Shown piece by piece: positions 26,102 through 46,797 of a stretch of 64,000 nt of DNA (its first letter is position 1; every line of letters begins with the position of its first letter). A program made the position numbers and the translations under genes. Source of the DNA: an uncultured bacterium. Lineage in GTDB: Bacteria > Pseudomonadota > Alphaproteobacteria > MED-G09. Location of the stretch: positions 8,205-72,204 of the forward strand of contig CAXFAF010000006.1 of the NCBI GenBank assembly GCA_964001285.1, read 5' to 3'. A model generated the notes under the pieces. That model worked only from the letters and a program-made list of their open reading frames with translations, did no database searches and had not been told where the DNA came from.

Positions 26102-26104
26102 AAA

Positions 26105-29193: not shown

Positions 29194-29198
29194 GGAGG
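29194..29198 (+). promoter_or_regulatory. Shine-Dalgarno (GGAGG) for the TonB-dependent receptor
   Basis: GGAGG lies 5-6 nt upstream of the ATG at 29204, and a signal peptide begins at that ATG. Confidence 0.6.
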
Positions 29199-29203
29199 TT
29201 TTT

Positions 29204-31402: not shown

Positions 31403-31423
31403 TAGCAAAAAATATTAAATAAA

Positions 31424-31450
31424 AAAGGCTCTTTAAAAGAGCCTTTTTTT
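31424..31450. terminator. Bidirectional rho-independent terminator
   Basis: AAAAAA-GGCTCTT-TAAA-AAGAGCC-TTTTTTT: a perfect 7-bp GC-containing stem flanked by an A-run and a T-run, placed between the convergent TBDR (+) and MBL (-) genes. Confidence 0.75.
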
Positions 31451-32327
31451 ATGAGCTATCCGGGTGTTTGACTTCATAAATAAAGTGATCGTCTTTTCTT
31501 TTTACATATCCTGCAGATGGTGTAGCGAAATGTGTGCCAAAAACCAAAATATTTTCATCTGCATATTCTTCAAGTTTTTTTCTTCTCGTTTTTTTAGCAA
31601 GTTCTTTATCCCAATCAGCACTTGATTCCCAATCCAATCTCTCCATTTGACAGGGATGATGTAAAAAATCACCAGTTATTGCTGCCTTTATACCTTGTGC
31701 CTCAATACAAACGCTTACATGACCAGGGGTATGGCCAATTGTAGGTTCAAGGTGAATTCCTTCGCAAATTTTTTCATCCATATCTACGAACTTGACTAAC
31801 CCGGAGTCAATGATTGGTATTATTGAGTCATTTATAAATTCTGCATACCTATGATCGTTTAATTGTTTTTCTGTATGTTCCCATTCTTTCTTGCCGAAGA
31901 GATAATCAGCTTTTTTAAAAGTTGGTTCCCATTTATCATCTACAAGTACTGTATTCCACCCAACATGATCGGTGTGCATATGCGTACATAAAACAGTATC
32001 TATCTTATCAACAGAGTACCCTGATGTTTCTAAGTCTTCTAAAAATCTTGTTTGTAACATATTCCATTGGGGAATATGTCTTTCCTTATCATTTCCAAGA
32101 CATGTATCAACAATTATGCATTTTTCATTTGTTTCAATTATCAGGGCATGAATGCTTACAATTGTATTTCCTTCACTATCAGAAAAGTAAGGTTGTAGCC
32201 ATGGCATTTTCAGGATTTCTTCAGGTACCGCATCAGGAACAACAAACATTGGCCCAGCTCTTTCACCTTCAATAATTCTTGTTATTTTTATATCGCCAAT
32301 ATTCCAACTACTGATTTTATTATTCAT
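31449..32327 (-). CDS. MBL-fold metallo-hydrolase (lactonase-like)
   Basis: CTHMHTDHVGW (HxHxDH), GHTPGH, TGD and GTHF supply the full metallo-beta-lactamase ligand set. 292 aa. Confidence 0.8.
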   Translation of the reverse strand: MNNKISSWNIGDIKITRIIEGERAGPMFVVPDAVPEEILKMPWLQPYFSDSEGNTIVSIHALIIETNEKCIIVDTCLGNDKERHIPQWNMLQTRFLEDLETSGYSVDKIDTVLCTHMHTDHVGWNTVLVDDKWEPTFKKADYLFGKKEWEHTEKQLNDHRYAEFINDSIIPIIDSGLVKFVDMDEKICEGIHLEPTIGHTPGHVSVCIEAQGIKAAITGDFLHHPCQMERLDWESSADWDKELAKKTRRKKLEEYADENILVFGTHFATPSAGYVKRKDDHFIYEVKHPDSS

Positions 32328-34144: not shown

Positions 34145-34161
34145 TAAGAGCCTAGCAAATT

Positions 34162-35559
34162 ATGAGTGATACGAAATTACCAAAAAAAACTTTGTTCTTC
34201 TATGGTCTTTCAGAGATGCCATTATCGATTGCTTCTCTTCCTTTGTTGGCTTTTATACCAAATTATTATGTATCAGATTTAGGGCTTGATTTTGCTGTTG
34301 TCGCATTAGTTATGCTTTTGGCTAGATCATTTGATGCCGTTACTGATCCCTTGATTGGGTATTTAAGTGATAGGACTGATACGCGATGGGGAAGAAGACG
34401 GATATGGATGTTTTTATCAATCCCTATTTTAATGATAGCGGCTTATAAAATATTTTTTCCTCAAAATCTTTGGGAATTTGTTCCTTTTAGTCTCGATTTT
34501 CTTTCTTTGAATTTAGGAGCAGGGGGTCACTATCTTTTGTTTTGGTTTTTAGTGCTTTGGTTTGGATGGAGTATGCTTTTTATTCCTTATTATTCTTGGG
34601 CTGCAGAATTATCTTCAGATTATAATGAAAGATCGACTATTGTTGGCTGGCGCATGTTTATTGGGACATTTGGTAATGCCATATCCAAATTTTTACCGGC
34701 TATTGCTTTGTTATTTTTTGCTTATGGGGGAGCCGAGGAGACTATTATAATTATTGGAGCTGTTTTTCTTTTGGTTATTCCAATTTGTATAAGTTTATCA
34801 ATTTTCAATGTCCCTGAGAGAATGGATTATCAGACCAAGCAGGGGTCTATTAAAGAAGGTCTAAAGGCTATGTGGAAGAACAAAGCCTTTAGGCAGTTAA
34901 TTTTTGCATACTTTTTTAATTATATAGGGGTAACTCTTTCAACTTTAACAGTTATGTTTTTTATTAGGGGTGTTACAGGAGAAGAAGAGCAAGGTATTCT
35001 TTATTTCATTTTTTACTATGTTGCTAATCTTATTGGAATTCCCTTTTGGCTTTGGCTTTCAAAAAAAATAGGAAAACATAATGCCTGGAAGATAGGCTTA
35101 GGTGTCTTCACAGTAATGCAGCCATGTTATTTTTTCCTGGGTCAGGGAGATTATTATTGGATGTTTCCAATTACTACAATTGCTGGTTTAGCAGGATCAA
35201 CATTTCATCTTATACCGCATGCCATGAAGGCAGATGTTATAGATTATGATACTTATCTTACTGGTGAAGATAGAGCAGCACAGTTTTTTGCCGCATGGTC
35301 ATTTATAACGAAAATGGCTATTGCTATTGCCCCATTTTTTGCCTTCACATATTTAGATTTAATAGGCTTTAACTCTACGCCCGGAGCAATAAATAGTCCG
35401 GAGCAAATACTGGGGTTAAAAATATTATTTTGTTTTGCCCTTCCGCTATTTCTAATAATCGCTATTTTGTGTGTTCGTGATTATCCTATTACACAAGCAA
35501 AACAAGAAGAGATTCGAAAAGAGATAGAAACTCAAAAAAAACAATTACAAGGAGTATAA
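34162..35559 (+). CDS. GPH-family (glycoside-pentoside-hexuronide:cation symporter, MelB-like) MFS transporter
   Basis: The N-terminal signature FYGLSEMPLSIASLP...DAVTDPLIGYLSDRTDTRWGRRR is diagnostic of GPH/MelB-type symporters. 12 TM. Confidence 0.85.
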   Translation: MSDTKLPKKTLFFYGLSEMPLSIASLPLLAFIPNYYVSDLGLDFAVVALVMLLARSFDAVTDPLIGYLSDRTDTRWGRRRIWMFLSIPILMIAAYKIFFPQNLWEFVPFSLDFLSLNLGAGGHYLLFWFLVLWFGWSMLFIPYYSWAAELSSDYNERSTIVGWRMFIGTFGNAISKFLPAIALLFFAYGGAEETIIIIGAVFLLVIPICISLSIFNVPERMDYQTKQGSIKEGLKAMWKNKAFRQLIFAYFFNYIGVTLSTLTVMFFIRGVTGEEEQGILYFIFYYVANLIGIPFWLWLSKKIGKHNAWKIGLGVFTVMQPCYFFLGQGDYYWMFPITTIAGLAGSTFHLIPHAMKADVIDYDTYLTGEDRAAQFFAAWSFITKMAIAIAPFFAFTYLDLIGFNSTPGAINSPEQILGLKILFCFALPLFLIIAILCVRDYPITQAKQEEIRKEIETQKKQLQGV

Positions 35560-35560
35560 A

Positions 35561-36082
35561 ATGAGCGACGCTTTAGAAAGAGTTATTGCAAAATCTGAAA
35601 TTTATGATCTTTCATGCAAATATATGAGAGGTCTAGATAGATTAGATATAGAATTGTTGAAATCTGTTTTTCATGATGGTGCTTGGTGCGATTATGGTTT
35701 TACAAAAAGTGATGCTCCAACATTTGCTCAATTCTGTATGGATGCACTCAAAGAACATCATGCTAATCATCATATGATTGGTAATGTTTTGATAGAATTC
35801 AGCGACAATAAAGATGAAGCTTTTGGTGAAGTCTATTTTCAGGCTTATCACAAAGTTGATGAAGACGGTCAAATGAATGATGTTTTTATTTCTGGACGAT
35901 ATCTTGATCGTTATGAAAAAAGAGATGGTATTTGGAAGATGGTATACAGATCTGAAATTGTAGATTGGTCACGAACTGAACCAACCCATGAACCATATTT
36001 TGATTCAGCTCCAGATTGTTTTCGAGGTGGTCGTCAAGATGATAGAGTTTATGATACTAAAGATAGATATAATCCAAATTAA
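35561..36082 (+). CDS. SnoaL_4 / NTF2-like domain protein (paralog A)
   Basis: 173 aa, with IYDLSCKYMRGLDRLDIELLKSVFHDGA (NTF2-like SnoaL_4 pattern). Paralogous to 44901..45434; C-terminal regions align (SGRYLDRYEKRDGIWK vs SGRYIDRFERRNGEWK). Confidence 0.75.
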   Translation: MSDALERVIAKSEIYDLSCKYMRGLDRLDIELLKSVFHDGAWCDYGFTKSDAPTFAQFCMDALKEHHANHHMIGNVLIEFSDNKDEAFGEVYFQAYHKVDEDGQMNDVFISGRYLDRYEKRDGIWKMVYRSEIVDWSRTEPTHEPYFDSAPDCFRGGRQDDRVYDTKDRYNPN

Positions 36083-37423
36083 TTAATTTTTAACTACCCT
36101 TACATTTTTTCTTCTCGATTTTGAAGAAGGTTGTAGTGCGAGACTCAACTGATCATCGTTAATTTCATATGGGATGTCATTTACTAAAAGATCTTTATAA
36201 AATTTACCATCTTTCATAACTGATACAATGCGATCGTGATCTTGGAGTACTGTTATATCTTCTAATGGGTTACCATCTATAACAACTAAATCAGCAAGTT
36301 TTCCTTCTTCCAGGGTTCCTAAGGAACCATCTGGGTGCATAGCTAACCCACCTAATCTTGTAGCTGAATGAATAGCTTCTGCATTAGTAAATCCAAAATG
36401 AGTTACATAATATTCTAGATCCTTTGCATATGTTCCATGAGGTGTGATGTTGAGACCATAATCACCTCCAACAAGAATACGAATACCAGCAGCCTGCATT
36501 TTTTTATAAGAAATAATCGTTTCTTCAAGTTCTTTCTTATAAGCTATCACTTCCCTGCTGTTTTCATCAAAACCCATATCTTTATAATTTTCTAGGAAGG
36601 TAATTTCCCAAGCTATTGCAGGACCAACAAATACTTTATCTTTATTCTTAACAAGAAGATCAAGTGCCTCATCATCGATATAATTTGCGTGACCAATGAA
36701 GTCTATACCAGCTTTGACAGCCTGTTTAACAGCTTCGGACGATCTTGCGTGACAAGCAACTCTCATTTTTTTTCTATGTGCCTCATCAACAATTACTTCT
36801 ACCTCTTCATCTGTGAAGCCTAAATCACCGGGCCTTCCTTGAAGTGATATAATTTCTCCATCTATCATAACCTTCACTATTTCTGCCCCATTTTTCCATA
36901 ACTGTCTTACCGCTGCTCTTAATTCCCATGGTCCATTCCTTATCATGCCCAAACCTTCTGGAACGATTTGTACATTGTCTGGATAAAAATCAGAATTTCC
37001 TCCTGTAGCAGAAATATCTTTACTTCCAGCTAGAAGACGAGGTCCTGGAATTTCTCCTCTTTCAATAGCTTCTTTTAAAAAGACATCAATTTTATGAACA
37101 GAACCAAAACTAATTGCTGACGTGAAACCAGATCCCAACATCAATCTCGCGTTGGAAATAGTTTTAATCATGGACTCTTCAACAGGAGCTTTGTCTAATT
37201 CCAATGGTCCACTGTTCGAATAAGAAATATGAGCATGTGCTTCAACCATACCAGGCATCACAAATAAACCATTACCATCGATGGTTTGAATATTGTCAGG
37301 AATATCTTCTAAGTTCTTTGAAGGTCCAGCATAGCGAATTAAGTTATTTTCAATCCAAATTGAAGAATCTTCTATAAGTTTATCGCCAGTCCCATCAAAC
37401 AATCTTATGTTTGTTATTAACAT
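36083..37423 (-). CDS. Metal-dependent amidohydrolase family protein
   Basis: 446 aa, with an N-terminal HxH metal site (PGMVEAHAHISY) and the TIM-barrel amidohydrolase layout. Confidence 0.8.
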   Translation of the reverse strand: MLITNIRLFDGTGDKLIEDSSIWIENNLIRYAGPSKNLEDIPDNIQTIDGNGLFVMPGMVEAHAHISYSNSGPLELDKAPVEESMIKTISNARLMLGSGFTSAISFGSVHKIDVFLKEAIERGEIPGPRLLAGSKDISATGGNSDFYPDNVQIVPEGLGMIRNGPWELRAAVRQLWKNGAEIVKVMIDGEIISLQGRPGDLGFTDEEVEVIVDEAHRKKMRVACHARSSEAVKQAVKAGIDFIGHANYIDDEALDLLVKNKDKVFVGPAIAWEITFLENYKDMGFDENSREVIAYKKELEETIISYKKMQAAGIRILVGGDYGLNITPHGTYAKDLEYYVTHFGFTNAEAIHSATRLGGLAMHPDGSLGTLEEGKLADLVVIDGNPLEDITVLQDHDRIVSVMKDGKFYKDLLVNDIPYEINDDQLSLALQPSSKSRRKNVRVVKN

Positions 37424-37434
37424 CTTAATTCCTT

Positions 37435-38415
37435 TTAGTTTTCCAATCTAAGAAGTTTTTTTGCATTATTTGTTAAATCTGGAGCAAAATCTTCTAATTT
37501 TTTTGGCGTATCCCAACCCCCAAAATTGGTACCATAAACTAATCTATCTTCTCCAATTAAGTCAAATAACATTTTTTGAGACTTTTCTCCATGTACATGT
37601 GCGTCGAACCACAAACGCTTGAGTTCATTGACAAATCCATTCTTTTTAACACCCTCAGGAGCCCAATCACGGAATTCAGACATTTCAGAAAAACGCTCTA
37701 TCAAATATGGCATTGCACCTCCACCATGTGATATACAAATATCCAAATCAGGATGACGATCCATAACACCTCCAATAATAAGTGTAGCTACAGCAAGTGT
37801 TTCTTCATATGCATAACCTAACATAATACTCATATCGTATCGTCCCATTCGCCAATCATCAGGACCTTCTGCACCACCAGTAGAGGCAGGGTGTAAGAAT
37901 AAAGGGATATTAAGATCAATTACAGTTTTGTAGAAATCATCTAATCTTGGATCATCAAGTCCAAAAGGATAATCTGTACCTGTTGATACGGCCACAAGCC
38001 CAAGATCCTTAACTGCTCGTTCAAGTTCTTTACATGCTAAATCAACATCTTGCATTGGTAAAGTAGCGGATCCTAATAACCTATCAGGATATTCATTAAT
38101 TGATTCTACCATTGCATCATTATGAATTTTACAAAACTCATTAGCAACATCTCCTTCAATCCTGTGGAACATAGTTAATGGATTGGGAGATAGTAACTGT
38201 AAATCAATTCCTAATTTATCCATGGCTTCGATACGAAGGTTATTTTCCATAAAAATAGTTCCTTCATATTGCATTGGCTTCATTTTATATTCACCAATAC
38301 GAAAATAAGGGATCCCATTTTCATCTAGACCTGTTTCAGGGCCATATTTTCCAGCTTTACCAAAAGCTTTACCCAGAACAATATGGGCGTGAGTATCAAT
38401 TACATTTATTGTCAT
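37435..38415 (-). CDS. Amidohydrolase_2 family protein (ACMSD / LigI / LigW-like decarboxylase-hydrolase)
   Basis: N-terminal IDTHAH, internal FLHP, ISHGGG and Asp positions typical of the ACMSD superfamily. 326 aa. Confidence 0.8.
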   Translation of the reverse strand: MTINVIDTHAHIVLGKAFGKAGKYGPETGLDENGIPYFRIGEYKMKPMQYEGTIFMENNLRIEAMDKLGIDLQLLSPNPLTMFHRIEGDVANEFCKIHNDAMVESINEYPDRLLGSATLPMQDVDLACKELERAVKDLGLVAVSTGTDYPFGLDDPRLDDFYKTVIDLNIPLFLHPASTGGAEGPDDWRMGRYDMSIMLGYAYEETLAVATLIIGGVMDRHPDLDICISHGGGAMPYLIERFSEMSEFRDWAPEGVKKNGFVNELKRLWFDAHVHGEKSQKMLFDLIGEDRLVYGTNFGGWDTPKKLEDFAPDLTNNAKKLLRLEN

Positions 38416-38420
38416 TTTTT

Positions 38421-38771
38421 TTAATCATCCGCAAATAATACTGTTCTCGGATTGCCTTCTTCATCATATACGGATTTATGCTTATCAATTAAATACATTT
38501 GATTTTCAGTTTCTCGTATACCAACAGAATTTAAAGCTTCCACCATTTCTAAATAGGTGTGGTGACTGAAATGGGCTATGAGAGAATCTTCATCTTTCCA
38601 AAGTTCATAAACTTGAATCCTATTTGGAACGCAAGGATCTGCTGCAAAACAATAACTAATGCAACCTTCTTCCTCCGTTCGTGTTGCCAGTTGAATATCG
38701 GCAGTTAATTCAATAGCCTTATCTCTGCCAGCTTCATTTTCAAAATCTAGGGTTGCTGAAATAATAATCAT
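38421..38771 (-). CDS. ABM / Dabb-like monooxygenase domain protein
   Basis: 116 aa ferredoxin-like fold, with ...RTEEEGCISYCFAAD...YELWKDEDSLIAHF. Confidence 0.7.
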   Translation of the reverse strand: MIIISATLDFENEAGRDKAIELTADIQLATRTEEEGCISYCFAADPCVPNRIQVYELWKDEDSLIAHFSHHTYLEMVEALNSVGIRETENQMYLIDKHKSVYDEEGNPRTVLFADD

Positions 38772-38780
38772 GTTTTTCTC

Positions 38781-40118
38781 CTATTCAAAGTAGCTTTCAA
38801 TCATTTCGTGAAATCTTCTTATTCGTTTTTCTTGTCCTGCAAAATATGCCCTGTCAAATCCTCTAGACCTGAGACCATGTTGTTGAAGAATAAATACTGC
38901 TGAATCTTGATCTATAGTTTGGCCAAGACTTTTTTCTCCGAGATCAAAGACTTCATGTTCAGCATATTCTCCTCTTTCTGAAATTCCTACAGTTGTTCTA
39001 ATTGGAGAAGTTTCATGTTCAGGGTTACTTGCATACCACCAATTGTCGAAGACACATTTCTCTGGGTCCGTTGGATGAGGTTTTGCTCTTAAAAAATGGA
39101 ATCCATCTGCCCACAATGAAACTGCAAAATTGGGAAAGAGGGTATAGTGAAAGGCGTCTGTTAATTGTTCATCTCTCAAATTTTTATAATGGGTATATCC
39201 TTTTTTTGGACCTATTTCTCTTTTAGCGATTTGTATGGCTACCCTTGTCTCTTGCCCTTTACCAGAGAAATCATCAGGATTAATTTCCCATTCCTTCATA
39301 ACTGAATTTAGAGGATCTTCTATTTGTCCATCTTCTTGCATAGATCCATACCCGGCTCGCATGATCATTCTGTTATGACCCTCTTCTGATAGGTCAAATT
39401 GTGTATTTTTATAGCTAGTATCAACGCCACTTGGCATTCTTCTTTTTGTTACAGCTCGCTCAGGGGCATGTACTGTTGGGAGATGATAAGATTCATTAAA
39501 ATTATCAAGAATTATTTTCCAATTACAAGGTACATTTACGGTTTGCGCAACATATCTTTTCCATTTATGAATTTCATAAGCTTCCCAATCTTTCCATACT
39601 GGACCTAACCATTCTTTTAATGAAGGCGCTTTTTCATGCATGTTAATCCAAATAAAACCTGCAAATGTTTCTGTTTTAACTTCTTTTAATTTAAGTTTTC
39701 CGCATGGATTTCCTTCAGGAAAATCTTCAGAGTCTTGTGCTTCAATAAGTTCGCCGTCTATTCTCCACTGCCAACCATGATAAGGACATTTGAAAGTTTC
39801 TGTTGATCCAAGATCGTTAAATGTCAATCTTGCTCCTCTGTGTTGGCAAACATTATAAAAAGTTTTTATTTTATTATTATCTTGGCGTATCATTAGGAAG
39901 CTTTCTCTTCCAAATTCTTCCATTTGGTAATCACCAGGTTCAGGAATTTGATCCTCTCTTCCTAAAAGTAACCAAACCTTTGGCCACATATGGGCCCATT
40001 CTTTTTCCATAAATTCTTTAGAATAATAGCGTGTTCCATCGACATCCAATCCTTTAAGATCAGGATTATCCCAAGAAGGACTTTCTTTTTTATACCAATC
40101 TAAATCAATTACATTCAT
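38781..40118 (-). CDS. Rieske non-heme-iron oxygenase alpha subunit (paralog 3)
   Basis: Rieske CQHRGARL...CPYHGW and Fe site DNFNESYHLPTVH. 445 aa. Confidence 0.88.
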   Translation of the reverse strand: MNVIDLDWYKKESPSWDNPDLKGLDVDGTRYYSKEFMEKEWAHMWPKVWLLLGREDQIPEPGDYQMEEFGRESFLMIRQDNNKIKTFYNVCQHRGARLTFNDLGSTETFKCPYHGWQWRIDGELIEAQDSEDFPEGNPCGKLKLKEVKTETFAGFIWINMHEKAPSLKEWLGPVWKDWEAYEIHKWKRYVAQTVNVPCNWKIILDNFNESYHLPTVHAPERAVTKRRMPSGVDTSYKNTQFDLSEEGHNRMIMRAGYGSMQEDGQIEDPLNSVMKEWEINPDDFSGKGQETRVAIQIAKREIGPKKGYTHYKNLRDEQLTDAFHYTLFPNFAVSLWADGFHFLRAKPHPTDPEKCVFDNWWYASNPEHETSPIRTTVGISERGEYAEHEVFDLGEKSLGQTIDQDSAVFILQQHGLRSRGFDRAYFAGQEKRIRRFHEMIESYFE

Positions 40119-40159: not shown

Positions 40160-40960
40160 TTAAAAAGTAGTATTTCCAATTCCGCCATCTATAACAAGAC
40201 TTTGTCCTATAACATAAGAAGCTTGTTGACTACAAAACATTGCAACAAAAGAACCTAAATCATCAGAAGATCCAAATTTTTTTGCTGGAATCTTCCAATT
40301 TTCAACAAAATTAGCAATTTCTTCATCATAAGATGTTCCATTTTCTTCTGCTAATTTATTATATCTTTCCTTAATGCTCGCAGTATGATGCATTCCGGGC
40401 AATATATTGTTTATCACAACATTATGTTTTGCAACTTTTTTTGAGACTGCTACTGAATAATTTACTAATGCCGCCCTTGGAGGGCCTGATAAAATTCTTA
40501 CTTCAGTTGGTGTTTTAGCTGCACCAGTACCGATATTAACTATACGTCCCCATTTTCTTTCTACCATACCAGGAATTATTGCTTTCATAAATTCTACAGG
40601 ACTAAGAAGTGCAACATCTAAAGTCTGCTTCCATTCATCAGTACTAACCTTTTCGTAGCTGTAAGTAAAAGGTGGAGGGGTGCATGTTCCAACTAAAATA
40701 TCAGGATTAGGACAAGCAGATATAATTTTTTCTCTTCCTTCATCTGTACTGTGATCAGCAACTATAGGCTCTACTTTTACATTAGTAGCTTTTTTAATTT
40801 CTTCACAGGTTTGTAATAATCTATCTTCTCCACGAGCAGAAATAAATAGATCAACACCTTCTTTAGCGAGAGCAAAAGCACTGCCTTTTCCCATTCCTGC
40901 GCTACCGCCATTGATAATTGCTTTTCTACCTTTAATACCTAAATCCATAATTTCCCCCAT
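40160..40960 (-). CDS. Short-chain dehydrogenase/reductase family protein
   Basis: Gly-rich coenzyme loop NGGSAGMGKGSA and Rossmann topology. First gene of the minus-strand operon 40960 to 36083. The catalytic tetrad spacing is atypical. Confidence 0.75.
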   Translation of the reverse strand: MGEIMDLGIKGRKAIINGGSAGMGKGSAFALAKEGVDLFISARGEDRLLQTCEEIKKATNVKVEPIVADHSTDEGREKIISACPNPDILVGTCTPPPFTYSYEKVSTDEWKQTLDVALLSPVEFMKAIIPGMVERKWGRIVNIGTGAAKTPTEVRILSGPPRAALVNYSVAVSKKVAKHNVVINNILPGMHHTASIKERYNKLAEENGTSYDEEIANFVENWKIPAKKFGSSDDLGSFVAMFCSQQASYVIGQSLVIDGGIGNTTF

Positions 40961-41077: not shown

Positions 41078-42712
41078 ATGCAAAAACAATACGATGTTAT
41101 AATACTTGGCGCAGGTGCAAGCGGTATGGCTGCCGCTTTGGCAGTTCATGAAAATGGTTCATCGGTAGGGCTTTTTGAGAAACAGAATCTTGTTGGAGGT
41201 ACAACAGGAGTTTCTGGAGGAATTATTTGGGCCCCTATGAATAGTTATATGAAAGAAAAGGGTATAGCCGATGATAGACAAAAGGCTATAGACTACTTCA
41301 TGTCTTTATCTAACAATGATATAGACCCAAATCTACTTGAATCTTTTATAGATAACTGTTCAACAGCAATAGATTTTATAGAAGAAAAAACCGACGCAAG
41401 TTTTTATATATTAGATGGTTATCCTGATTATTATCTTGATAGACCTGGTGCTTTAGAAGGCGGAGGAAGAGCCTTAGATAATAATCTATTTGATTTTAGT
41501 AAACTTGGAAATTGGGCTGAGAAAGTTAGAGGTAACGGAAAACCAATTCCTATGACTCTTGGGGAAACACCTCTAGGTGGAGGAACAGGTATAGTAGAGG
41601 ATTCTATCATGGGAGAAAGAATTTCAAATGACTCACGAGGAATGGGTCAAGCATTAGTTGGGGCTCTTCTCAAAGGTTGTCTCGACAGAGGCATTGAACC
41701 CCAGCTTGGGATAAATACAAAAAAATTAATTAAAGAAGGAAATAGAATCATTGGTATTGAGATTGATAATAATGGTGAGGCTTTTGAAATCTACGCAAAT
41801 AGAGGTGTCATTATTGCTACTGGAGGCTTCGAATGGAACGAGAATTTAGTAAATAATTTCTTAAGAGGTCCCCTAAATGCTCCTGCGTCACCTCCAGGTA
41901 ATGATGGTGATGGATTAAAATTAACTCAAGAAGTAGGCGCTTCTTTAGGCAATATGACAAGCGCCTGGTGGTCGCCTGTTCTATCAATACCAGGTGATCA
42001 ATGGCCAGAAGGGGGACAAAGGTCAGCTCCAATTTTAATTGAAAGAACTTTACCTCATACAATTATGGTGAATCGATCAGGTAATAGATTTTGTAATGAA
42101 GCAACTAATTATTCTGCAATGGCCGGTGCTTTTCATTTTTTTGACCCCAATGAATATGGGTATCCAAATTTACCAGCATGGTTGATTTTTGATTCAAATT
42201 ATAGAGAAAAATATCCTTTTTCTAATATTATGCCAGGATCTAATGATCCCGAATGGTTTATTAGTTCTGAAAATATAAAGGAATTATCTGAGAAACTTGA
42301 AATAGATTCCAAATCTTTGAAAAATACAATCAAAGTTTTTAACAGTTATGTTGATAACGGTGAAGATCTTGAGTTTGGAAGAGGTAAAAGTGATTACGAT
42401 TCTTTTTATGGAGATAGAACCCAATCAGGTGTCTACACGACCTTAGGAAAAATAGATAAACCGCCCTTTTATGCGGTTAAATTAGATATTGGGGCTTTGG
42501 GAACTAATGGTGGAGCAAGAACTGATAAATTTGGTCGAGTAATTTCTGCCTCAGGAGAAATTATTGACGGTTTGTACACTGTGGGGAATGCTATGGCAGG
42601 TAGTACGGGTTCGGTTTATGCGGGAGCAGGTGGCACCTTGGGTCCAGCATTGACTTATGGTTATCTTGCTGGTTGTCATGCTGCAGGAAATAATTTTGCT
42701 GAAAAGGAGTAA
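41078..42712 (+). CDS. FAD-dependent oxidoreductase, 3-ketosteroid-delta1-dehydrogenase (KstD)-like / fumarate-reductase flavoprotein family
   Basis: N-terminal FAD motif DVIILGAGASGMAAAL, and C-terminal ...GLYTVGNAMAGSTGSVYAGAGGTLGPALTYGYLAG typical of KstD-like enzymes. 544 aa. Confidence 0.82.
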   Translation: MQKQYDVIILGAGASGMAAALAVHENGSSVGLFEKQNLVGGTTGVSGGIIWAPMNSYMKEKGIADDRQKAIDYFMSLSNNDIDPNLLESFIDNCSTAIDFIEEKTDASFYILDGYPDYYLDRPGALEGGGRALDNNLFDFSKLGNWAEKVRGNGKPIPMTLGETPLGGGTGIVEDSIMGERISNDSRGMGQALVGALLKGCLDRGIEPQLGINTKKLIKEGNRIIGIEIDNNGEAFEIYANRGVIIATGGFEWNENLVNNFLRGPLNAPASPPGNDGDGLKLTQEVGASLGNMTSAWWSPVLSIPGDQWPEGGQRSAPILIERTLPHTIMVNRSGNRFCNEATNYSAMAGAFHFFDPNEYGYPNLPAWLIFDSNYREKYPFSNIMPGSNDPEWFISSENIKELSEKLEIDSKSLKNTIKVFNSYVDNGEDLEFGRGKSDYDSFYGDRTQSGVYTTLGKIDKPPFYAVKLDIGALGTNGGARTDKFGRVISASGEIIDGLYTVGNAMAGSTGSVYAGAGGTLGPALTYGYLAGCHAAGNNFAEKE

Positions 42713-42714
42713 TT

Positions 42715-43623
42715 ATGGAAAAAGTTTTGGTTTATGGTGCAAGTGGCGATCAAGGAGTTCCTCTTGTTAATGCGTTAATTAAAAAGGGCTATAAAATTAG
42801 AGCTGCATCAAGATATCCAGAAAAATACAAAAGTGAAATTCAGGGAGATGTAGAGAGTGTAAAGGCTGATCTATTTGATGTTAATACACTTAAAGAAGCT
42901 TGTAGAGATGTTGATTGTATAGCTATGAATTTACCTTTTGTTTTTGATAGAGCGATTGCGAAACAATGGGGAGAAAATATAAATAATGCTGGAAAAGAAA
43001 TGGGTGTTAAGAAAATAGTTTTTAATACAAGTTGTTATGTTGCCCCTAATGATAATGGATTAGAAGCCCATGATGGAAGAAGAGAAATAGAGAAATCTAT
43101 GGAAGAAAGTGGTATGGATTTTGCTGTAATTAGATCGGTGGTTTTTATGGATAATCTATCAAGATTTTGGGCGAAACCTTCGATAGTTAATAGTAATATT
43201 TTTGCTTATCCTTGCAGCGAAACCCTTAAAATTTCTTGGATTTGTCTTGAAGATGTCGCAGCCTTTATGGTCGCAGCCTTATCAAAGAAAGATGTTAAAG
43301 CTGATAAAATTACTGTTGGCGGACCTGAAATATTATTGGGTTCTGAAGTTGCTGAGAAATTTACGAAAGCACTTGGTAGAGAAATAAATTTTCAGAGTTT
43401 AGAACCAAATAGTTTTGCAAGACAAATGAGCAAGTTAGTCACTGGGTCTGAAGAATATGAAAAACCATCCATCTATGGTGGGATGGCAGCTTTTTATAGA
43501 TGGTATAATGAACAAGACCCTTCACCCTTAGCAATTGAAATGGATGAGTTGTATGATAAATTTTCTATAACTCCAACTTATTTTGAGGACTGGATTAAAA
43601 AGCATGATTGGGATAATATCTAA
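42715..43623 (+). CDS. NmrA-like NAD(P)-binding protein (atypical SDR)
   Basis: N-terminal Rossmann VLVYGASGDQGVPLVNALIKKGYKIRAASR. 302 aa, with a 3-nt gap to the upstream gene. Confidence 0.78.
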   Translation: MEKVLVYGASGDQGVPLVNALIKKGYKIRAASRYPEKYKSEIQGDVESVKADLFDVNTLKEACRDVDCIAMNLPFVFDRAIAKQWGENINNAGKEMGVKKIVFNTSCYVAPNDNGLEAHDGRREIEKSMEESGMDFAVIRSVVFMDNLSRFWAKPSIVNSNIFAYPCSETLKISWICLEDVAAFMVAALSKKDVKADKITVGGPEILLGSEVAEKFTKALGREINFQSLEPNSFARQMSKLVTGSEEYEKPSIYGGMAAFYRWYNEQDPSPLAIEMDELYDKFSITPTYFEDWIKKHDWDNI

Positions 43624-43646
43624 TAAGAGGTTTTTAAAATTATGTA

Positions 43647-44891
43647 ATGTCTGACAGTAATATTGAAAAATACAGTTTTTTAGATCCGCTTATTAATAGC
43701 GACCCTTTTGAGTTTTACGAAATGCTTCATAAAGAGCAACCTGTATATAAAATTCCTGAGGTCGGAATTTATATGCTTACAAAATATGATGATATTAGGA
43801 TGGCTCTTAAAGATTTTGAAACATTTTCAAACGATGTCAGTGTAGCGACCCGAGGTGAATTTTCATCGTTACATCAAAATATTCTTACTGATGGTGGAGG
43901 CTGGGAGCATGTTCAGACTCTTCAAAGAACTGATCCTCCTGTTCATAGAAGGTATAGAAAACTTGTCGATAGGGTATTTACTAAGAAAAGAGTAGATGAA
44001 TTATTACCTCATCTCGACGAAGTTGTTAACGAGCTAATTGATAATTTTATTGAAAGTGGAACTTGTGACTTCAATGATGAGTTTGCTATGCGTATGCCTG
44101 GTATCATAATAGCCGAGCAACTTGGTTTATCGAGAGACAATGTTGCTACTTTTAAAAAATGGGCTGACTCAATGTTAGGTGCAAGTAGGGCGCCCATCGC
44201 GACTGAAGAGGAAGTAACTGCAAATGCAAAGATTGAGCTTGAAGCCCAACTTTTTTTGGCTGATGTATTTGAAGATAGAAGAAAAAATCCAAAAGAAGAT
44301 TTGATGTCGGCAATGGTTCACGCTCACGGTGATGATGAAGAGCCTTTATCTATGCATGAACTTCAAAATTTAATGCATCAATTAATTACTGGTGGATATG
44401 AAACAACTCAAAGCGCTATTAATCACGGAATGTGGGCTCTTATAAGATTTCCAGATATTGTAGAAAAACTCTATGAGGATGACTCACTTCTAAAACCTTT
44501 TATTGAGGAGGTTTTAAGATGGGAAAGTCCAGTTCAATTCCTTTTAAGAAGGACGCAAAAAGATGTAGAAGTATCAGGGACAACAATACCTAAGGACTCA
44601 ATGGTCATGATGGGATATGGACCGGCTAATAGAGACGAAAGCAAATTTTCATGCCCTCATCAGTTTCAATTAGATAGAGAAGGTGTTGGTGCGCATGTAG
44701 CTTTTGGTTCAGGCGCGCATCATTGTCCAGGTGCTCTATTAGGCAGACAAGAAATGATTCGTTCTTTCAAATTTCTTATAAAAAGAATGAAAAATATAAA
44801 ACTAGCTAAACCCCTTCAAGAGCCTGTTCACAATTTCAGTTTGTTTTTTATGCCTATGAAGGAATTTTTTATAACTTTTGATAAGCGTTAA
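43647..44891 (+). CDS. Cytochrome P450
   Basis: Heme-thiolate loop FGSGAHHCPGALLG, I-helix ITGGYETT, an ExxR motif and PERF-like regions. 414 aa. Confidence 0.92.
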   Translation: MSDSNIEKYSFLDPLINSDPFEFYEMLHKEQPVYKIPEVGIYMLTKYDDIRMALKDFETFSNDVSVATRGEFSSLHQNILTDGGGWEHVQTLQRTDPPVHRRYRKLVDRVFTKKRVDELLPHLDEVVNELIDNFIESGTCDFNDEFAMRMPGIIIAEQLGLSRDNVATFKKWADSMLGASRAPIATEEEVTANAKIELEAQLFLADVFEDRRKNPKEDLMSAMVHAHGDDEEPLSMHELQNLMHQLITGGYETTQSAINHGMWALIRFPDIVEKLYEDDSLLKPFIEEVLRWESPVQFLLRRTQKDVEVSGTTIPKDSMVMMGYGPANRDESKFSCPHQFQLDREGVGAHVAFGSGAHHCPGALLGRQEMIRSFKFLIKRMKNIKLAKPLQEPVHNFSLFFMPMKEFFITFDKR

Positions 44892-44900: not shown

Positions 44901-45434
44901 CTATCTTTGGTATGCGGGATCTTGACGACTTCTACTTGCAGAAGGTCCCGGTGCTTCTAGTTGGCCTTTTTCATTAGCAGGTTCAAATCTGATCCAATCA
45001 TGAACACCCTGTCGTTTAGCTATTTTCCATTCACCATTTCTTCTTTCGAAGCGATCAATATATCTTCCACTAACGAAAACATCCTCATCAATGCTTGTGT
45101 CATGCTCAGCTAAAAAACCCATATCAGATTCTTTACCTTTGGCGATTCTATGATATGCGGTCCAATAAGCTTCAGACCATGCAATATCACCATCTACTTC
45201 AATAAGAAGATTTCCAACAAGATGTTGGGTAAATTCCATTTCAGCTAATATGTCGAAGGCAAAGTTACAGAAATCTGATGATGGACCCTCATATTCTCCA
45301 TGATGATGAATTGAGTCTTCATGGAATACGGATTCTAAAAGTTCCCGATCCATTCTGTCTATTGCTCTGCAGTATCTATATACCACATCTGCTATTTCAA
45401 TCTTATCTGCAGCTATTTCCAATTTTTTATTCAT
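44901..45434 (-). CDS. SnoaL_4 / NTF2-like domain protein (paralog B); positioned like an oxygenase beta subunit
   Basis: 177 aa, with IADVVYRYCRAIDRMDRELLESVFHEDS. Begins 16 nt downstream of Rieske alpha paralog 4 on the same strand. Confidence 0.75.
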   Translation of the reverse strand: MNKKLEIAADKIEIADVVYRYCRAIDRMDRELLESVFHEDSIHHHGEYEGPSSDFCNFAFDILAEMEFTQHLVGNLLIEVDGDIAWSEAYWTAYHRIAKGKESDMGFLAEHDTSIDEDVFVSGRYIDRFERRNGEWKIAKRQGVHDWIRFEPANEKGQLEAPGPSASRSRQDPAYQR

Positions 45435-45450: not shown

Positions 45451-46797
45451 TTATTCATTTTCTTCGTTAAAAAGGTATCGATCAATATTTTCATGAAAAA
45501 ATCTTATTCTATTTTCTTGAGCCGGCATATAATCGCCTATGTAACCTCTTGAGCTCAAACCTTTTTGTTGACTGGTCCATATTGCAACATCTTCAGAAAT
45601 TCCATCTCCTACATCTACTTCAGAGTGATGCCCCTTTAGATGAGGAATTTTTGTATTTATAGCTGTTTTCTTTTTCAGCATATGTGAATAATATTCATCA
45701 ACTCCTTTTGGAAATAAAGTTAGATACCAATAGTCAAAATAACATTTTGTTGGATCAGTAGGGTGGGGTGTTCCTCTAAGCCATTGCATTCCATCTGGTT
45801 TTACACTGAATGACATATTTGGAAAAATTGTATAATGGTGATGATCTGTTAATTGGGTATCTGTAAACTTACTAAAGTCATAACCTTTTTCTTTATCAAG
45901 TTTCCTTTTTTGCTTTTGCAAATCGTTTCTTATTTCAAGAAGCCTACCTTTATAATCATTTGCATCCATATCCCAATACTCAATTGCCGGAGAAATAGCC
46001 TCTAAAACTTTTTTTTCATCATCATAAACACTTTTACTAGGAATAAATCCAGGCATAAGCATTCTTGCATGCATACTTTCATACATATCGAATTGACAAG
46101 AGTAATATTTTTCATCTGAGAAATATTTTAAGGCAGGATGAACATAAGGAGTATGATATGATTCATTGAAATTATCCTGTACACATTTCCAGTTCCAATC
46201 ACCTTCAACAGTAACCCAATGTGTTCTTATCATTTCCGATATGGGATAGTTTTCTAGTTGATCCATTACTGGATGTAAATATTCTTTTAAAGTTTTTGCG
46301 TTAGGGTCTAGATTAAAAAAAATAAATCCTTCCCAAATCTCTGATTTAATTTCAATTAAATTTCTTTTACCGCAAGGAGAGCCTTGAGGAAAATCCTCTT
46401 CATCAGGAACCCATTCAAGGTTTCCGTCCAGGCCAAATTTCCAGGCGTGATAAGCGCATGAAAAACTATCTAAGTTGCCTTCATCAACCTGAACTAATTT
46501 ATTTCCTCTATGTTGGCATACATTATAGAAGCATCTAATTTTAGAATCTTCACCTTTTGCACATAAAATTGACTCACGACCAAAATCATATGTAAAGAAG
46601 TCACCAGGATTTTCGAGTTGCTGTTCTAAACCAGCAACTTGCCAAACTTTTGTAAAAAGTTTTTCCCACTCTAAATCCATAAATTCTTTCGATGTATACC
46701 TTTCTCCGAGAATAGGTTTATTGCCTAACTTTGGTTCAGGTGCTTTGACTGTATCACCACCAAAGAAAGAATCAGATTTTGATAAAATTTTATCCAT
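45451..46797 (-). CDS. Rieske non-heme-iron oxygenase alpha subunit (paralog 4)
   Basis: Rieske CQHRGNKL...CAYHAW (variant second box) and Fe site DNFNESYHTPYVH. 448 aa. Confidence 0.86.
   Translation of the reverse strand: MDKILSKSDSFFGGDTVKAPEPKLGNKPILGERYTSKEFMDLEWEKLFTKVWQVAGLEQQLENPGDFFTYDFGRESILCAKGEDSKIRCFYNVCQHRGNKLVQVDEGNLDSFSCAYHAWKFGLDGNLEWVPDEEDFPQGSPCGKRNLIEIKSEIWEGFIFFNLDPNAKTLKEYLHPVMDQLENYPISEMIRTHWVTVEGDWNWKCVQDNFNESYHTPYVHPALKYFSDEKYYSCQFDMYESMHARMLMPGFIPSKSVYDDEKKVLEAISPAIEYWDMDANDYKGRLLEIRNDLQKQKRKLDKEKGYDFSKFTDTQLTDHHHYTIFPNMSFSVKPDGMQWLRGTPHPTDPTKCYFDYWYLTLFPKGVDEYYSHMLKKKTAINTKIPHLKGHHSEVDVGDGISEDVAIWTSQQKGLSSRGYIGDYMPAQENRIRFFHENIDRYLFNEENE

What the first reader, a model, noticed from the sequence alone, without database searches (positions are those of the whole stretch)
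41078..44891. KstD-like flavoprotein - NmrA-like reductase - cytochrome P450 operon next to KshA-like Rieske oxygenases
Three genes are co-oriented with 3-nt and 24-nt gaps. The first is a 544-aa FAD enzyme with the 3-ketosteroid-delta1-dehydrogenase-type C-terminus. The second is an NmrA-family NAD(P) protein. The third is a complete P450 (FGSGAHHCPGALLG). KstD plus an alpha-only Rieske (KshA-type) plus a P450 is the classical logic of steroid or sterol nucleus opening in actinobacteria and proteobacteria. The same chemistry applies to cyclic terpenoids. In an oligotrophic marine alphaproteobacterium this would be an unusual capability, if it is real.
Basis: partly seen in the sequence, partly recalled or inferred. 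Interest (0 to 1): 0.6.

Follow-up and report, generated by a model that had tools for sequence, protein, structure and literature searches.

The report
Cyclic-ketone desaturase operon, not steroid pathway

Summary
The three genes are real, intact and tightly packed, at 41078-42712, 42715-43623 and 43647-44891. The first is a KstD/AcmB-clade flavoprotein. It is 38% identical to AcmB, and all four catalytic residues are present and invariant. It reaches only about half of any curated cut-off, and its top model is the monocyclic-ketone enzyme ChcC1. The second has an NmrA fold closest to reductases of polycyclic ketones and quinones. The third is a complete class-I P450, 34% identical to a reconstructed CYP125 ancestor, so it belongs to no assignable CYP family.

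The "KshA-like" label is wrong. All four Rieske oxygenases are Ring_hydroxyl_A (PF00848) type, and three have an NTF2-like SnoaL_4 partner here or in relatives. No hsa or ksh genes, no extradiol dioxygenase, no beta-oxidation genes and no redox-partner genes lie in the island, and the rest of the window is housekeeping.

The flavoprotein-NmrA pair is conserved in 9 of 9 OCS116-group genomes and 29 of 70 other species, including Novosphingobium, Caulobacteraceae and Luminiphilus. The usual neighbours there are SDRs, PF00848 Rieske proteins and SnoaL-like proteins.

Best reading: an uncharacterised module that desaturates and reduces cyclic ketones, for terpenoid-like or alicyclic dissolved organic matter. 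The substrate is unknown. Interest is moderate.

The parts
41078..42712 (+). KstD/AcmB-family FAD-dependent dehydrogenase (544 aa), predicted to desaturate a cyclic ketone at the alpha,beta position
   Evidence: PF00890, E 1e-62. NCBIfam: ChcC1 420 bits, KstD models 403-412 bits, all below their cut-offs. 38% identical to AcmB (7p18) over 483 aa. Y118, Y345, Y514 and G518 align with AcmB Y118, Y363, Y536 and G540 and are invariant in 15 homologs. A GAGG ribosome-binding site lies 7 nt upstream.
42715..43623 (+). NmrA-like atypical SDR (302 aa), predicted NAD(P)H-dependent reductase; the conserved partner of the flavoprotein
   Evidence: PF05368, E 7e-28. GASGDQG dinucleotide-binding motif. AlphaFold model pLDDT 91. 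Nearest solved folds are SAV0421, KstA11, SwaQ2, SimC7, QOR2 and triphenylmethane reductase. An ortholog sits directly downstream of the flavoprotein in 9/9 OCS116-group and 29/70 other species loci.
43647..44891 (+). Class-I cytochrome P450 (414 aa), belonging to no assignable CYP family
   Evidence: PF00067. Heme-binding, I-helix and ExxR motifs are present. Best PDB hit is CYP125MRCA, 190 bits, 34% identity. This slot holds a 46%-identical paralog in the MED-G09 subclade. Homologs of 63-70% identity occur in marine Gammaproteobacteria, one of them next to another FAD_binding_2 + SDR + MFS_2 set.
40160..40960 (-). Classical SDR (266 aa), divergently transcribed from the triad across a 117-bp spacer
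   Evidence: adh_short, E 1e-25. Kept next to the flavoprotein gene at 76-95% identity throughout the OCS116 group, but not elsewhere.
44901..45434 (-). SnoaL_4 / NTF2-like protein (177 aa), downstream partner of Rieske oxygenase 4
   Evidence: PF13577, E 4e-21. Only weak PDB hits: Rv3472, LinA and a Rieske-oxygenase beta subunit. Y21, D26 and H71 are present in the printed sequence. 16 nt after the Rieske gene.
45451..46797 (-). Rieske oxygenase 4 (448 aa), Ring_hydroxyl_A type
   Evidence: PF00355 + PF00848. CntA 106 bits, KshA 30 bits. CxH...CxxH motif present.
36083..40118 (-). Operon: Rieske oxygenase 3 (38781-40118), ABM monooxygenase-like (38421-38771), Amidohydro_2 (37435-38415), Amidohydro_1 (36083-37423)
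   Evidence: Pfam. The block is syntenic across OCS116 genomes.
32774..36082 (+). Operon: Rieske oxygenase 2 (32774-34144), GPH/MFS_2 symporter (34162-35559), SnoaL_4a (35561-36082)
   Evidence: Pfam, NCBIfam GPH family. SnoaL_4a Y21, D26 and H71 align with the D25/H73 dyad of LinA, and with the Tyr, Asp and His of BaiE that are catalytic as I recall them.
24108..32327 (.). Left part of the island: MFS (24108-25361 -), MBL hydrolase (25379-26101 -), dienelactone hydrolase (26105-26812 -), SDR (26834-27607 -), Rieske oxygenase 1 (27626-29014 -), TonB-dependent receptor (29108-31402 +), lactonase-like MBL (31449-32327 -)
   Evidence: Pfam, NCBIfam. Orthologs of SDR_26834 (54-61% identity) lie in the same loci as the flavoprotein-NmrA pair in Novosphingobium, Caulobacteraceae and related MAGs, and Rieske 1 orthologs (about 50%) do so in Novosphingobium. 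This links the left part of the island to the triad.

Best explanation
The triad is the core of an uncharacterised catabolic module that oxidises an alicyclic ring. That ring is probably part of a terpenoid-like or other polycyclic or cyclic compound taken up from seawater. Proposed order, all inferred: (1) the P450, and the Rieske oxygenases of the island, hydroxylate unactivated carbons; (2) a classical SDR (40160-40960 and/or 26834-27607) oxidises a ring secondary alcohol to a ketone; (3) the KstD-family flavoprotein removes two hydrogens next to that ketone to give an enone or dienone, the same 1,2-desaturation chemistry as KstD, AcmB and ChcC1; (4) the NmrA-like enzyme uses NAD(P)H to reduce a carbonyl, quinone or conjugated double bond of the product; (5) the SnoaL_4 proteins act as eliminases/isomerases or as beta-like partners of the Rieske subunits, and the lactonase-like and amidohydrolase enzymes open oxidised rings. 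Uptake would go through the TonB-dependent receptor and the MFS transporters. What is shown: gene integrity, family membership, the catalytic residues, the NmrA fold and the conserved gene linkage. What is inferred: the substrate, the order of steps and the role of each accessory enzyme. The module is not the 9,10-seco steroid pathway.
For: The flavoprotein lies in the KstD/AcmB/ChcC1 clade with all four catalytic residues, which are invariant across 15 homologs of 53-82% identity. The family includes enzymes for steroids and for a monocyclic ketone, so the chemistry can be predicted but the substrate cannot. The flavoprotein-NmrA pair is kept in 9/9 OCS116-group and 29/70 other species-representative loci, across Sphingomonadales, Caulobacteraceae and the gammaproteobacterium Luminiphilus. 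The neighbours of the pair in 14 non-OCS116 loci are dominated by SDRs (19), NmrA (12), PF00848 Rieske (5), SnoaL_4 (5) and SnoaL_2 (5). SDR_26834, Rieske 1, Rieske 4 and SnoaL_4 orthologs cluster with the pair in Novosphingobium, so the island behaves as one unit. The nearest folds to the NmrA model are reductases of polycyclic ketones and quinones. A 68%-identical P450 in a marine gammaproteobacterium sits next to another FAD_binding_2 + SDR + MFS_2 + SnoaL + MBL + Amidohydro_2 set. SDR_26834 resembles cyclic and secondary alcohol dehydrogenases, including ChcB1 (208 bits) and a 7-alpha-hydroxysteroid dehydrogenase (159 bits). In a Novosphingobium MAG the pair sits with a CoA ligase, an SCP-x-type thiolase plus DUF35 protein, two acyl-CoA dehydrogenases, P450s, a limonene-epoxide-hydrolase-like protein and an RPE65 carotenoid oxygenase, which is a terpenoid-acid-like context. 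OCS116 has been proposed as a user of recalcitrant dissolved organic matter (PMC7575717).
Against: No substrate evidence exists, and every family-level score is far below the curated cut-offs. The island has no ferredoxin or reductase for the P450 and the four Rieske oxygenases, no ring-cleavage dioxygenase and no beta-oxidation genes, so at most an upper pathway is encoded here. The P450 is not part of the conserved core outside the OCS116/MED-G09 group: it is swapped for a 46% paralog in one subclade and is absent or convergent elsewhere. The amidohydrolases and the CntA/GbcA-like Rieske N-terminal domains could point to nitrogen-containing substrates instead. Gene linkage in a streamlined genome can partly reflect packing rather than shared function.
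Confidence: 0.5

Rival explanations
1. Classical sterol/steroid catabolism. The P450 would act like CYP125 on the side chain, the flavoprotein would be a true 3-ketosteroid delta-1-dehydrogenase, and a Rieske oxygenase would carry out the 9-alpha-hydroxylation that opens ring B.
For: The best solved relatives are AcmB and KstD1, and the catalytic residues are kept. The best solved P450 relative is a reconstructed CYP125 ancestor, and CYP124 is also on the list. NTF2-fold proteins do act on steroids: Hsh2 and BaiE (PMC12175502) and 8,14-Bsr. JGI auto-annotation calls some homologs '3-oxosteroid 1-dehydrogenase'. The Novosphingobium context includes DUF35, an SCP-x-type thiolase, a pair of acyl-CoA dehydrogenases and a CoA ligase, as in steroid side-chain degradation.
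Against: The Rieske proteins are not KshA: they are PF00848 type, with 30 bits to KshA against 106 to CntA. The P450 is only 34% identical to the CYP125 ancestor. The KstD equivalog models score 403-412 bits against cut-offs of about 789, no better than ChcC1. No Hsa, KshB, Ipd or FadD3-type gene lies in the island, and the rest of the 64-kb window is housekeeping. No KshA_C or extradiol family reached the 25 most frequent Pfam families among the neighbours of 14 sampled homologous loci. [quoted passage not shown]
Confidence: 0.12
2. Chc-like aromatisation of a monocyclic alicyclic acid. The P450 hydroxylates a cyclohexane-carboxylate-type ring, an SDR makes the ketone, the flavoprotein desaturates it like ChcC1, and the aromatic product is then attacked by the PF00848 Rieske oxygenases.
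For: The top NCBIfam hit of the flavoprotein is ChcC1, 4-oxocyclohexanecarboxylate 2-dehydrogenase, aligned end to end at 420 bits. SDR_26834 hits ChcB1 (208 bits) and ChcB2 (152 bits). A P450 is present. PF00848 Rieske oxygenases are typically aromatic-ring hydroxylases. That the Chc pathway uses a P450 hydroxylase is my own recollection of the Sinomonas cyclohexanicum chc cluster work; that paper was not found in the library.
Against: All scores are at about 40-50% of the equivalog cut-offs. Only one KstD-family gene is present, whereas aromatisation needs a second desaturase (ChcC2). The NmrA partner has no counterpart in that pathway. The island has no protocatechuate or catechol ring-cleavage genes.
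Confidence: 0.15
3. Oxidative processing of nitrogen-containing or quinone/polyketide-like compounds. The Rieske enzymes would act as N- or O-demethylases or C-N cleaving monooxygenases like CntA, GbcA and Stc2. The amidohydrolases would open lactams or amides. NmrA and the ABM proteins would handle quinones, and the flavoprotein would desaturate a heterocyclic or quinoid ketone.
For: The best Rieske hits are CntA, GbcA and a stachydrine-demethylase-type enzyme. Read by eye from the sequences, the NFNESYH motif carries Glu where naphthalene dioxygenase has the bridging Asp, as I recall is also the case in CntA. Two amidohydrolases and two MBL hydrolases are present. The nearest NmrA folds include QOR2 and anthracycline or angucycline reductases. 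ABM and SnoaL families are present.
Against: Rieske similarity to CntA and GbcA is confined to the N-terminal half, at about 107-153 bits against a cut-off of 670. The KstD-family active site is built for C-C desaturation next to a ring ketone. In sphingomonads the pair sits with CoA-dependent lipid or terpenoid-type genes.
Confidence: 0.13
4. Tailoring of a self-made secondary metabolite (biosynthesis rather than catabolism), or adjacency without a shared pathway.
For: P450, SnoaL, ABM and SimC7-like reductase families are typical tailoring enzymes for aromatic polyketides.
Against: The window contains no PKS, NRPS or terpene synthase. Uptake components (a TonB-dependent receptor and MFS symporters) are embedded in the island. 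In relatives the triad lies directly behind two TonB-dependent receptors. The linkage is conserved across orders.
Confidence: 0.06

Closest known systems
AcmB (cholest-4-en-3-one delta-1-dehydrogenase, Sterolibacterium denitrificans, PDB 7p18) and KstD1 (Rhodococcus erythropolis, PDB 4c3x)
   Same: Same FAD_binding_2 fold. It is the best solved relative (318 bits, 38% identity over 483 aa). The catalytic Tyr, Tyr, Tyr and Gly are conserved, so the predicted chemistry is the same: desaturation next to a ring ketone.
   Different: It scores only about half of the KstD equivalog cut-offs. It is paired with an NmrA-like gene rather than sitting in a ksh/hsa context. The region around residues 146-185 does not align with AcmB. 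The substrate is unknown.
ChcC1/ChcB1 of the cyclohexanecarboxylate aromatisation pathway (NCBIfam NF053676 and NF053702)
   Same: ChcC1 is the highest-scoring curated model for the flavoprotein, aligned end to end (420 bits). An SDR of the island hits ChcB1 (208 bits). The gene set P450 + SDR + KstD-family desaturase is the same.
   Different: All scores are far below the cut-offs of 1000 and 400. There is no second desaturase. The NmrA, Rieske and SnoaL_4 genes have no counterpart there.
KshA (3-ketosteroid 9-alpha-hydroxylase oxygenase)
   Same: Both are Rieske [2Fe-2S] non-heme iron oxygenases.
   Different: The catalytic domain here is Ring_hydroxyl_A (PF00848). The score to KshA is 30 bits, against 106 to CntA and 97 to a biphenyl dioxygenase alpha subunit. 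These proteins are 445-462 aa, and three of the four are accompanied by an NTF2-like gene, here or in relatives.
CYP125 / CYP124 / CYP150 / CYP107 / CYP109-type class-I P450s
   Same: Same P450 class and motifs. The top PDB hits (175-190 bits) are enzymes that act on sterol side chains, branched lipids, macrolides and terpenoids.
   Different: Only 34% identity to the best hit, below the 40% convention for a CYP family. No adjacent ferredoxin or reductase.
SimC7, KstA11, SwaQ2, QOR2 and triphenylmethane reductase (NmrA-like atypical SDRs)
   Same: Closest folds: TM-score 0.71-0.80, probability 1.0. All bind NAD(P)(H) and act on polycyclic ketones, quinones or conjugated systems.
   Different: Only 15-22% sequence identity. 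None is known to partner a KstD-family enzyme.

Membership tests
3-ketosteroid delta-1-dehydrogenase (KstD/AcmB) | FAD_binding_2 fold with an N-terminal GxGxxG FAD-binding motif | tested here: met
   PF00890 over residues 6-521, E 1e-62. ILGAGASG lies at the N-terminus.
3-ketosteroid delta-1-dehydrogenase (KstD/AcmB) | Catalytic residues (AcmB Y118, Y363, Y536, G540; KstD1 Y119, Y318, Y487, G491) | tested here: met
   Query Y118, Y345, Y514 and G518 align with them and are invariant in 15 homologs. The residue roles are taken from my knowledge of the published structures.
3-ketosteroid delta-1-dehydrogenase (KstD/AcmB) | Reaches the curated equivalog score | tested here: not met
   PRK12844 412 bits against 789; PRK07843 403 against 788; PRK12845 333 against 793.
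3-ketosteroid delta-1-dehydrogenase (KstD/AcmB) | Activity on 3-ketosteroids | not testable with these tools
   Needs an enzyme assay.
[quoted passage not shown] | KshA/KshB, HsaA-D and ring C/D genes (IpdAB, FadD3, EchA20) in the genome, usually clustered | tested here: not met
   None in the island, and the rest of the 64-kb window is housekeeping. No KshA_C or extradiol family reached the 25 most frequent Pfam families among the neighbours of 14 homologous loci. The rest of the genome could not be searched.
KshA-type Rieske oxygenase | Rieske domain plus a KshA-type C-terminal catalytic domain, about 380-400 aa, with closest similarity to KshA | tested here: not met
   All four proteins are Rieske + PF00848 and 445-462 aa. 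KshA (4qdf) gives 30 bits, against 106 for CntA.
CYP125 (steroid C26-monooxygenase) family | At least 40% identity to a family member (CYP nomenclature rule) | tested here: not met
   34% over 369 aligned residues to CYP125MRCA, the best PDB hit.
Cytochrome P450 superfamily | Cys-ligand loop, I-helix (A/G)Gx(D/E)T(T/S) and ExxR motifs | tested here: met
   FGSGAHHCPG at residue 353, GGYETT at 249, EVLR at 288.
NmrA-like atypical SDR | Pfam NmrA above the gathering score, a GxxGxxG motif and a Rossmann fold with a C-terminal substrate domain | tested here: met
   98.5 bits against a cut-off of 27. Model pLDDT 91, with NmrA-family top fold hits.
Chc aromatisation pathway (ChcA/B/C1/C2) | ChcC1 and ChcB1 at equivalog level, plus a second desaturase ChcC2 | tested here: not met
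   ChcC1 420 bits against 1000. ChcB1 208 against 400. There is only one KstD-family gene in the island; the only other FAD_binding_2 ORF in the window is the SdhA/FrdA-type fragment at 75-1181.

The most novel reading that the evidence does not exclude
The KstD-family flavoprotein and its NmrA-like partner, together with paralogous PF00848 Rieske / SnoaL_4 gene pairs, would form a previously unrecognised and widespread route by which aquatic oligotrophs attack alicyclic dissolved organic matter. The carriers include OCS116, marine Gammaproteobacteria, and freshwater and marine Sphingomonadales and Caulobacteraceae. Candidate substrates are carotenoid-derived ionone or loliolide-type rings, sterol or terpenoid fragments, and carboxyl-rich alicyclic molecules. 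The route would be distinct from both the 9,10-seco steroid pathway and the Chc pathway.
Probability: 0.25. Interest if true: 0.65.

Novelty: new variant of a known kind. Interest (0 to 1): 0.4.

Why it matters
OCS116 is an abundant but uncultured surface-ocean lineage that has been proposed to use semi-labile or recalcitrant dissolved organic matter (PMC7575717). The genes are common in ocean metagenomes. The 90%-identity clusters hold 53, 527 and 516 member sequences, and a 75%-identical ortholog is indexed in 174 blocks of the contig collection. Public records annotate them only as 'FAD-binding dehydrogenase', 'hypothetical protein' and 'cytochrome'. Finding the substrate of the conserved flavoprotein-NmrA pair would assign a function to a gene set shared by several major freshwater and marine groups. 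It would also say which alicyclic carbon pool these oligotrophs consume. A cultured carrier of the orthologous cluster, Novosphingobium fuchskuhlense FNE08-7 (L062), makes this experimentally tractable. The practical lesson is that 'KstD + Rieske + P450' must not be read as steroid degradation without checking the Rieske subtype.

Tried and rejected
1. Rfam scan of the whole window: no RNA family, so no riboswitch clue to a ligand. No tRNA genes.
2. Promoter and terminator scan of 40000-47000: counts equal those of shuffled sequence, so it is uninformative.
3. Literature searches: OCS116 + P450; marine steroid catabolism; carboxyl-rich alicyclic + ketosteroid + Rieske; SnoaL + Rieske + marine; 4-oxocyclohexanecarboxylate. 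None describes this module, and the Chc pathway paper is not in the library.
4. Deciding whether the SnoaL_4 proteins are eliminases or Rieske beta subunits. The PDB hits are weak for both: LinA 27 bits and BaiE 19 bits, against a putative beta subunit (3eby) at 17 bits. The conserved His also occurs in that putative beta subunit, so the question stays open.
5. I first took the 54-61% SDR ortholog next to the pair in sphingomonads to be the divergent neighbour SDR_40160. Re-checking showed it is the ortholog of SDR_26834.
6. A Rieske gene of about 400 aa beside the pair in Novosphingobium (L026) was tested as a possible KshA. It is PF00848 type, so this was rejected.
7. Horizontally acquired island: rejected as unsupported. 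The GC content of the island (0.31-0.37) overlaps that of the flanks (0.28-0.36), and the same chromosomal neighbours (amt, pheA-like and kdsB-like genes) flank it in relatives.
8. Genome-wide search for steroid genes in OCS116 genomes was not possible.

Full report
**Observation.** Pfam confirms FAD_binding_2, NmrA and p450. The P450 has the Cys-ligand loop FGSGAHHCPG, the I-helix motif GGYETT and the ExxR motif EVLR. A GAGG ribosome-binding site precedes the first gene. The exact flavoprotein sequence occurs on at least 14 marine metagenome contigs, and the six inspected show identical synteny. Public records call the three proteins only 'FAD-binding dehydrogenase', 'hypothetical protein' and 'cytochrome' of 'Rhodobiaceae bacterium' MAGs.

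**Host.** A scan of species-representative genomes places the window in the OCS116 / 'Rhodobiaceae bacterium' / MED-G09 group of marine Alphaproteobacteria. The flavoprotein is 95% identical to that of MAG XB_MAG275 and 74-80% identical to those of the OCS116 single-cell genomes. The window has 28-37% GC. Outside 24.1-46.8 kb it encodes housekeeping functions: TCA-cycle enzymes, ATP synthase, obg, proB and dnaX, among others.

**The flavoprotein.**
- Its best solved relative is AcmB (7p18, 318 bits, 38% identity over 483 aligned residues), followed by KstD1 (4c3x, 182 bits). Fumarate and urocanate reductases score 100 bits or less.
- Query Y118, Y345, Y514 and G518 align with AcmB Y118, Y363, Y536 and G540. 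All four are invariant in an alignment of 15 homologs with 53-82% identity to the query.
- Among curated NCBIfam models the top hit is ChcC1, 4-oxocyclohexanecarboxylate 2-dehydrogenase (420 bits, cut-off 1000). Three KstD models follow at 333-412 bits, with cut-offs near 790.
- The protein therefore belongs to the KstD clade, and the prediction of alpha,beta-desaturation next to a ring ketone is well founded. It is an ortholog of no characterised enzyme. Because the clade demonstrably includes a non-steroid enzyme, the fold does not identify the substrate.

**The NmrA-like protein.** It has the GASGDQG dinucleotide-binding motif. An AlphaFold model built from 19 homologs is confident (pLDDT 91, pTM 0.90). 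Its nearest solved folds are SAV0421, KstA11, SwaQ2 (solved with doxorubicin), SimC7, QOR2 and triphenylmethane reductase, at TM-scores of 0.71-0.80. These are NAD(P)(H) enzymes that act on polycyclic ketones, quinones or conjugated systems. A reductase role is thus plausible but inferred.

**The P450.** The best solved hit is a reconstructed CYP125 ancestor (190 bits, 34% identity). It is followed closely by 6gmf, CYP150A6, EryF (CYP107A1), PikC, vitamin D3 hydroxylase and CYP124. It is not an alkane hydroxylase, and it scores only 38 bits on the CYP152 fatty-acid peroxygenase model. Identity is below the 40% convention, so it can be assigned to no named CYP family. Homologs of 63-70% identity occur in marine Gammaproteobacteria. 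One of these lies beside a 497-aa FAD_binding_2 protein, an SDR, an MFS_2 transporter, a SnoaL protein, an MBL hydrolase and an Amidohydro_2 protein. That is the same set of families as in this window.

**The Rieske oxygenases.**
- The window has four Rieske genes (27626-29014, 32774-34144, 38781-40118 and 45451-46797). They are 27-39% identical to one another, and all carry the CxH...CxxH motif.
- All four carry the Ring_hydroxyl_A catalytic domain, PF00848.
- The gene next to the triad scores 106 bits to carnitine monooxygenase CntA and 97 to a biphenyl dioxygenase alpha subunit, but only 30 bits to KshA. NCBIfam gives GbcA and HcaE as the best, weak, hits.
- Rieske 4 is followed after 16 nt by a SnoaL_4 (NTF2-like) gene, and Rieske 2 has one two genes downstream. 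In relatives the Rieske 3 ortholog also has one directly downstream.
- These small proteins keep Y21, D26 and H71. In SnoaL_4a these align with the D25/H73 dyad of LinA and, as I recall the BaiE catalytic residues, with its Y30, D35 and H83. They also give weak hits to Rieske-oxygenase beta subunits. Whether they are eliminases or beta-like subunits stays open.

**What is missing.** The island contains no ferredoxin or reductase, no extradiol or intradiol dioxygenase, no HsaA-D, KshB or Ipd-type gene and no CoA-dependent side-chain gene, and the rest of the window is housekeeping. The remaining island genes are:
- two MFS transporters;
- a TonB-dependent receptor;
- two MBL hydrolases, one of them lactonase-like;
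- a dienelactone hydrolase;
- two amidohydrolases;
- ABM proteins;
- two SDRs.

**Comparative genomics.**
- I compared the island proteins with 93 related loci. In the OCS116 group the NmrA ortholog follows the flavoprotein in 9 of 9 loci with room for it, and a P450 follows in 9 of 10.
- In the MED-G09 subclade the P450 slot holds a 46%-identical paralog, and there the triad lies directly behind two TonB-dependent receptors.
- Among 70 other species, the gene directly downstream of the flavoprotein is an NmrA ortholog (48-54% identity) in 29. These are Novosphingobium, other Sphingomonadaceae and some Parasphingorhabdus, Caulobacteraceae and Luminiphilus. It is a Rieske 4-like gene in 12, a convergent P450 in 11 and an SDR in 12.
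- Orthologs of SDR_26834 (54-61% identity) lie in the same loci as the pair in Novosphingobium, Caulobacteraceae and related MAGs. In Novosphingobium, orthologs of Rieske 1 and Rieske 4 (about 50%) and of SnoaL_4a (50-58%) do too. The 23-kb island therefore behaves as one functional unit.
- A Pfam census of 144 neighbouring ORFs from 14 non-OCS116 loci gives adh_short 19, NmrA 12, Rieske + Ring_hydroxyl_A 5, SnoaL_4 5 and SnoaL_2 5. TonB-dependent receptors, acyl-CoA dehydrogenases, ADH_N_2 and alpha/beta hydrolases each appear 3 times. No KshA_C or extradiol family is among the top 25.
- The Rieske gene beside the pair in Novosphingobium is again PF00848 type.
- In one Novosphingobium MAG the pair is embedded among a CoA ligase, an SCP-x-type thiolase plus DUF35 protein, two acyl-CoA dehydrogenases, two P450s, a limonene-epoxide-hydrolase-like protein, enone-reductase-like ADH_N_2 and an RPE65 carotenoid oxygenase. 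In SAR86 a 62% homolog sits with an SDR, an aldo-keto reductase, a TonB-dependent receptor and a sulfatase.

**Interpretation.** The evidence supports a conserved module whose invariant core is the KstD-family desaturase plus the NmrA-like reductase. This core is served by SDRs, with changeable P450s and Rieske/NTF2 oxygenase pairs attached. The likely logic is:
1. hydroxylation by the P450 or a Rieske oxygenase;
2. oxidation of the alcohol to a ketone by an SDR;
3. alpha,beta-desaturation by the flavoprotein;
4. NAD(P)H-dependent reduction or rearrangement by the NmrA-like enzyme;
5. elimination and hydrolytic ring opening by accessory enzymes.

This matches the A-ring activation logic of steroid degraders and the Chc logic for cyclohexanecarboxylate, but it is a member of neither system. 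I put about 0.5 on 'alicyclic or terpenoid-like ring oxidation module, substrate unknown'. I put about 0.12 on genuine steroid catabolism, 0.15 on Chc-like aromatisation of monocyclic acids, 0.13 on nitrogen-containing or quinoid substrates and 0.06 on biosynthesis or coincidental adjacency. Carotenoid-derived rings are an attractive candidate, given the RPE65 neighbour in Novosphingobium and the several lactonase-like enzymes. This is speculation, not a result.

**Novelty and verdict.** Every protein belongs to a known superfamily, and the predicted chemistry is ordinary. What is not described, as far as the searched literature shows, is the conserved KstD-family/NmrA pairing and its association with PF00848 Rieske / SnoaL_4 pairs in abundant aquatic oligotrophs. 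I rate it a new variant of a known kind with moderate interest (0.4). The steroid interpretation is only partly supported, and the 'KshA-like' label is wrong.

Noticed in passing
window 27626-29014, 32774-34144, 38781-40118, 45451-46797; SnoaL_4 genes at 35561-36082 and 44901-45434: Four paralogous PF00848 Rieske oxygenases (27-39% identical to one another) lie within 20 kb. Three have an NTF2-like SnoaL_4 gene downstream, here or in relatives. The same Rieske-SnoaL_4-SnoaL_4-SnoaL_4-Rieske arrays occur in Novosphingobium (L048, L052, L056, L062, L066). This may be an undescribed two-component arrangement, with the SnoaL_4 protein acting either as a beta-like subunit or as an eliminase.
   Followed up: partly
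window 50775-53026 (- strand); L007 13824-16078: A NosD/beta-helix protein (413 aa) and a 341-aa protein with a CAHCH motif form a conserved pair. In MED-G09-type relatives their orthologs (61-68% identity) lie directly after the P450 on the same strand, followed by a GFA-domain gene. In this window they are 6-8 kb away and inverted. Either a local inversion occurred or they are optional extra members of the operon.
   Followed up: partly
window 43647-44891; contig with P0276: The P450 has 63-70% identical homologs in marine Gammaproteobacteria, a higher identity than that between the flavoproteins of the same lineages (59-62%). One of these homologs sits beside a shorter (497 aa) FAD_binding_2 protein, an SDR and an MFS_2 transporter. 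This suggests lateral exchange of a P450/flavoprotein cassette between marine oligotrophs.
   Followed up: partly
L009 (SAR86 MAG, GCA_029268615.1) 10001-18654: The SAR86 homolog of the flavoprotein (62% identity) is followed by an SDR. It is clustered with an aldo-keto reductase, a TonB-dependent receptor, an NMO-family protein and a sulfatase, which hints at sulfated substrates in that lineage.
   Followed up: no
window 24108-46797: The island encodes five oxygenases that need external electrons (one P450 and four Rieske proteins), but no ferredoxin or reductase gene. The redox partners must be encoded elsewhere and shared.
   Followed up: partly
window 46868-47764 (- strand): A 298-aa protein has an N-terminal hydrophobic segment, a long charged low-complexity linker and a C-terminal cytochrome c domain (CSACH). 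It is conserved next to the island throughout the OCS116 group (63-89% identity in most loci, 41% in L021).
   Followed up: no
window 7585-8889 (- strand): A 434-aa tyrosine recombinase (Phage_integrase domain) lies between the sucCD/lpdA genes and the transaldolase gene. It is unusually long for XerC/D, and no tRNA or repeat was examined nearby.
   Followed up: no
window 1-64000: No tRNA gene (ARAGORN) and no Rfam family at gathering score were found in the whole 64-kb window.
   Followed up: yes
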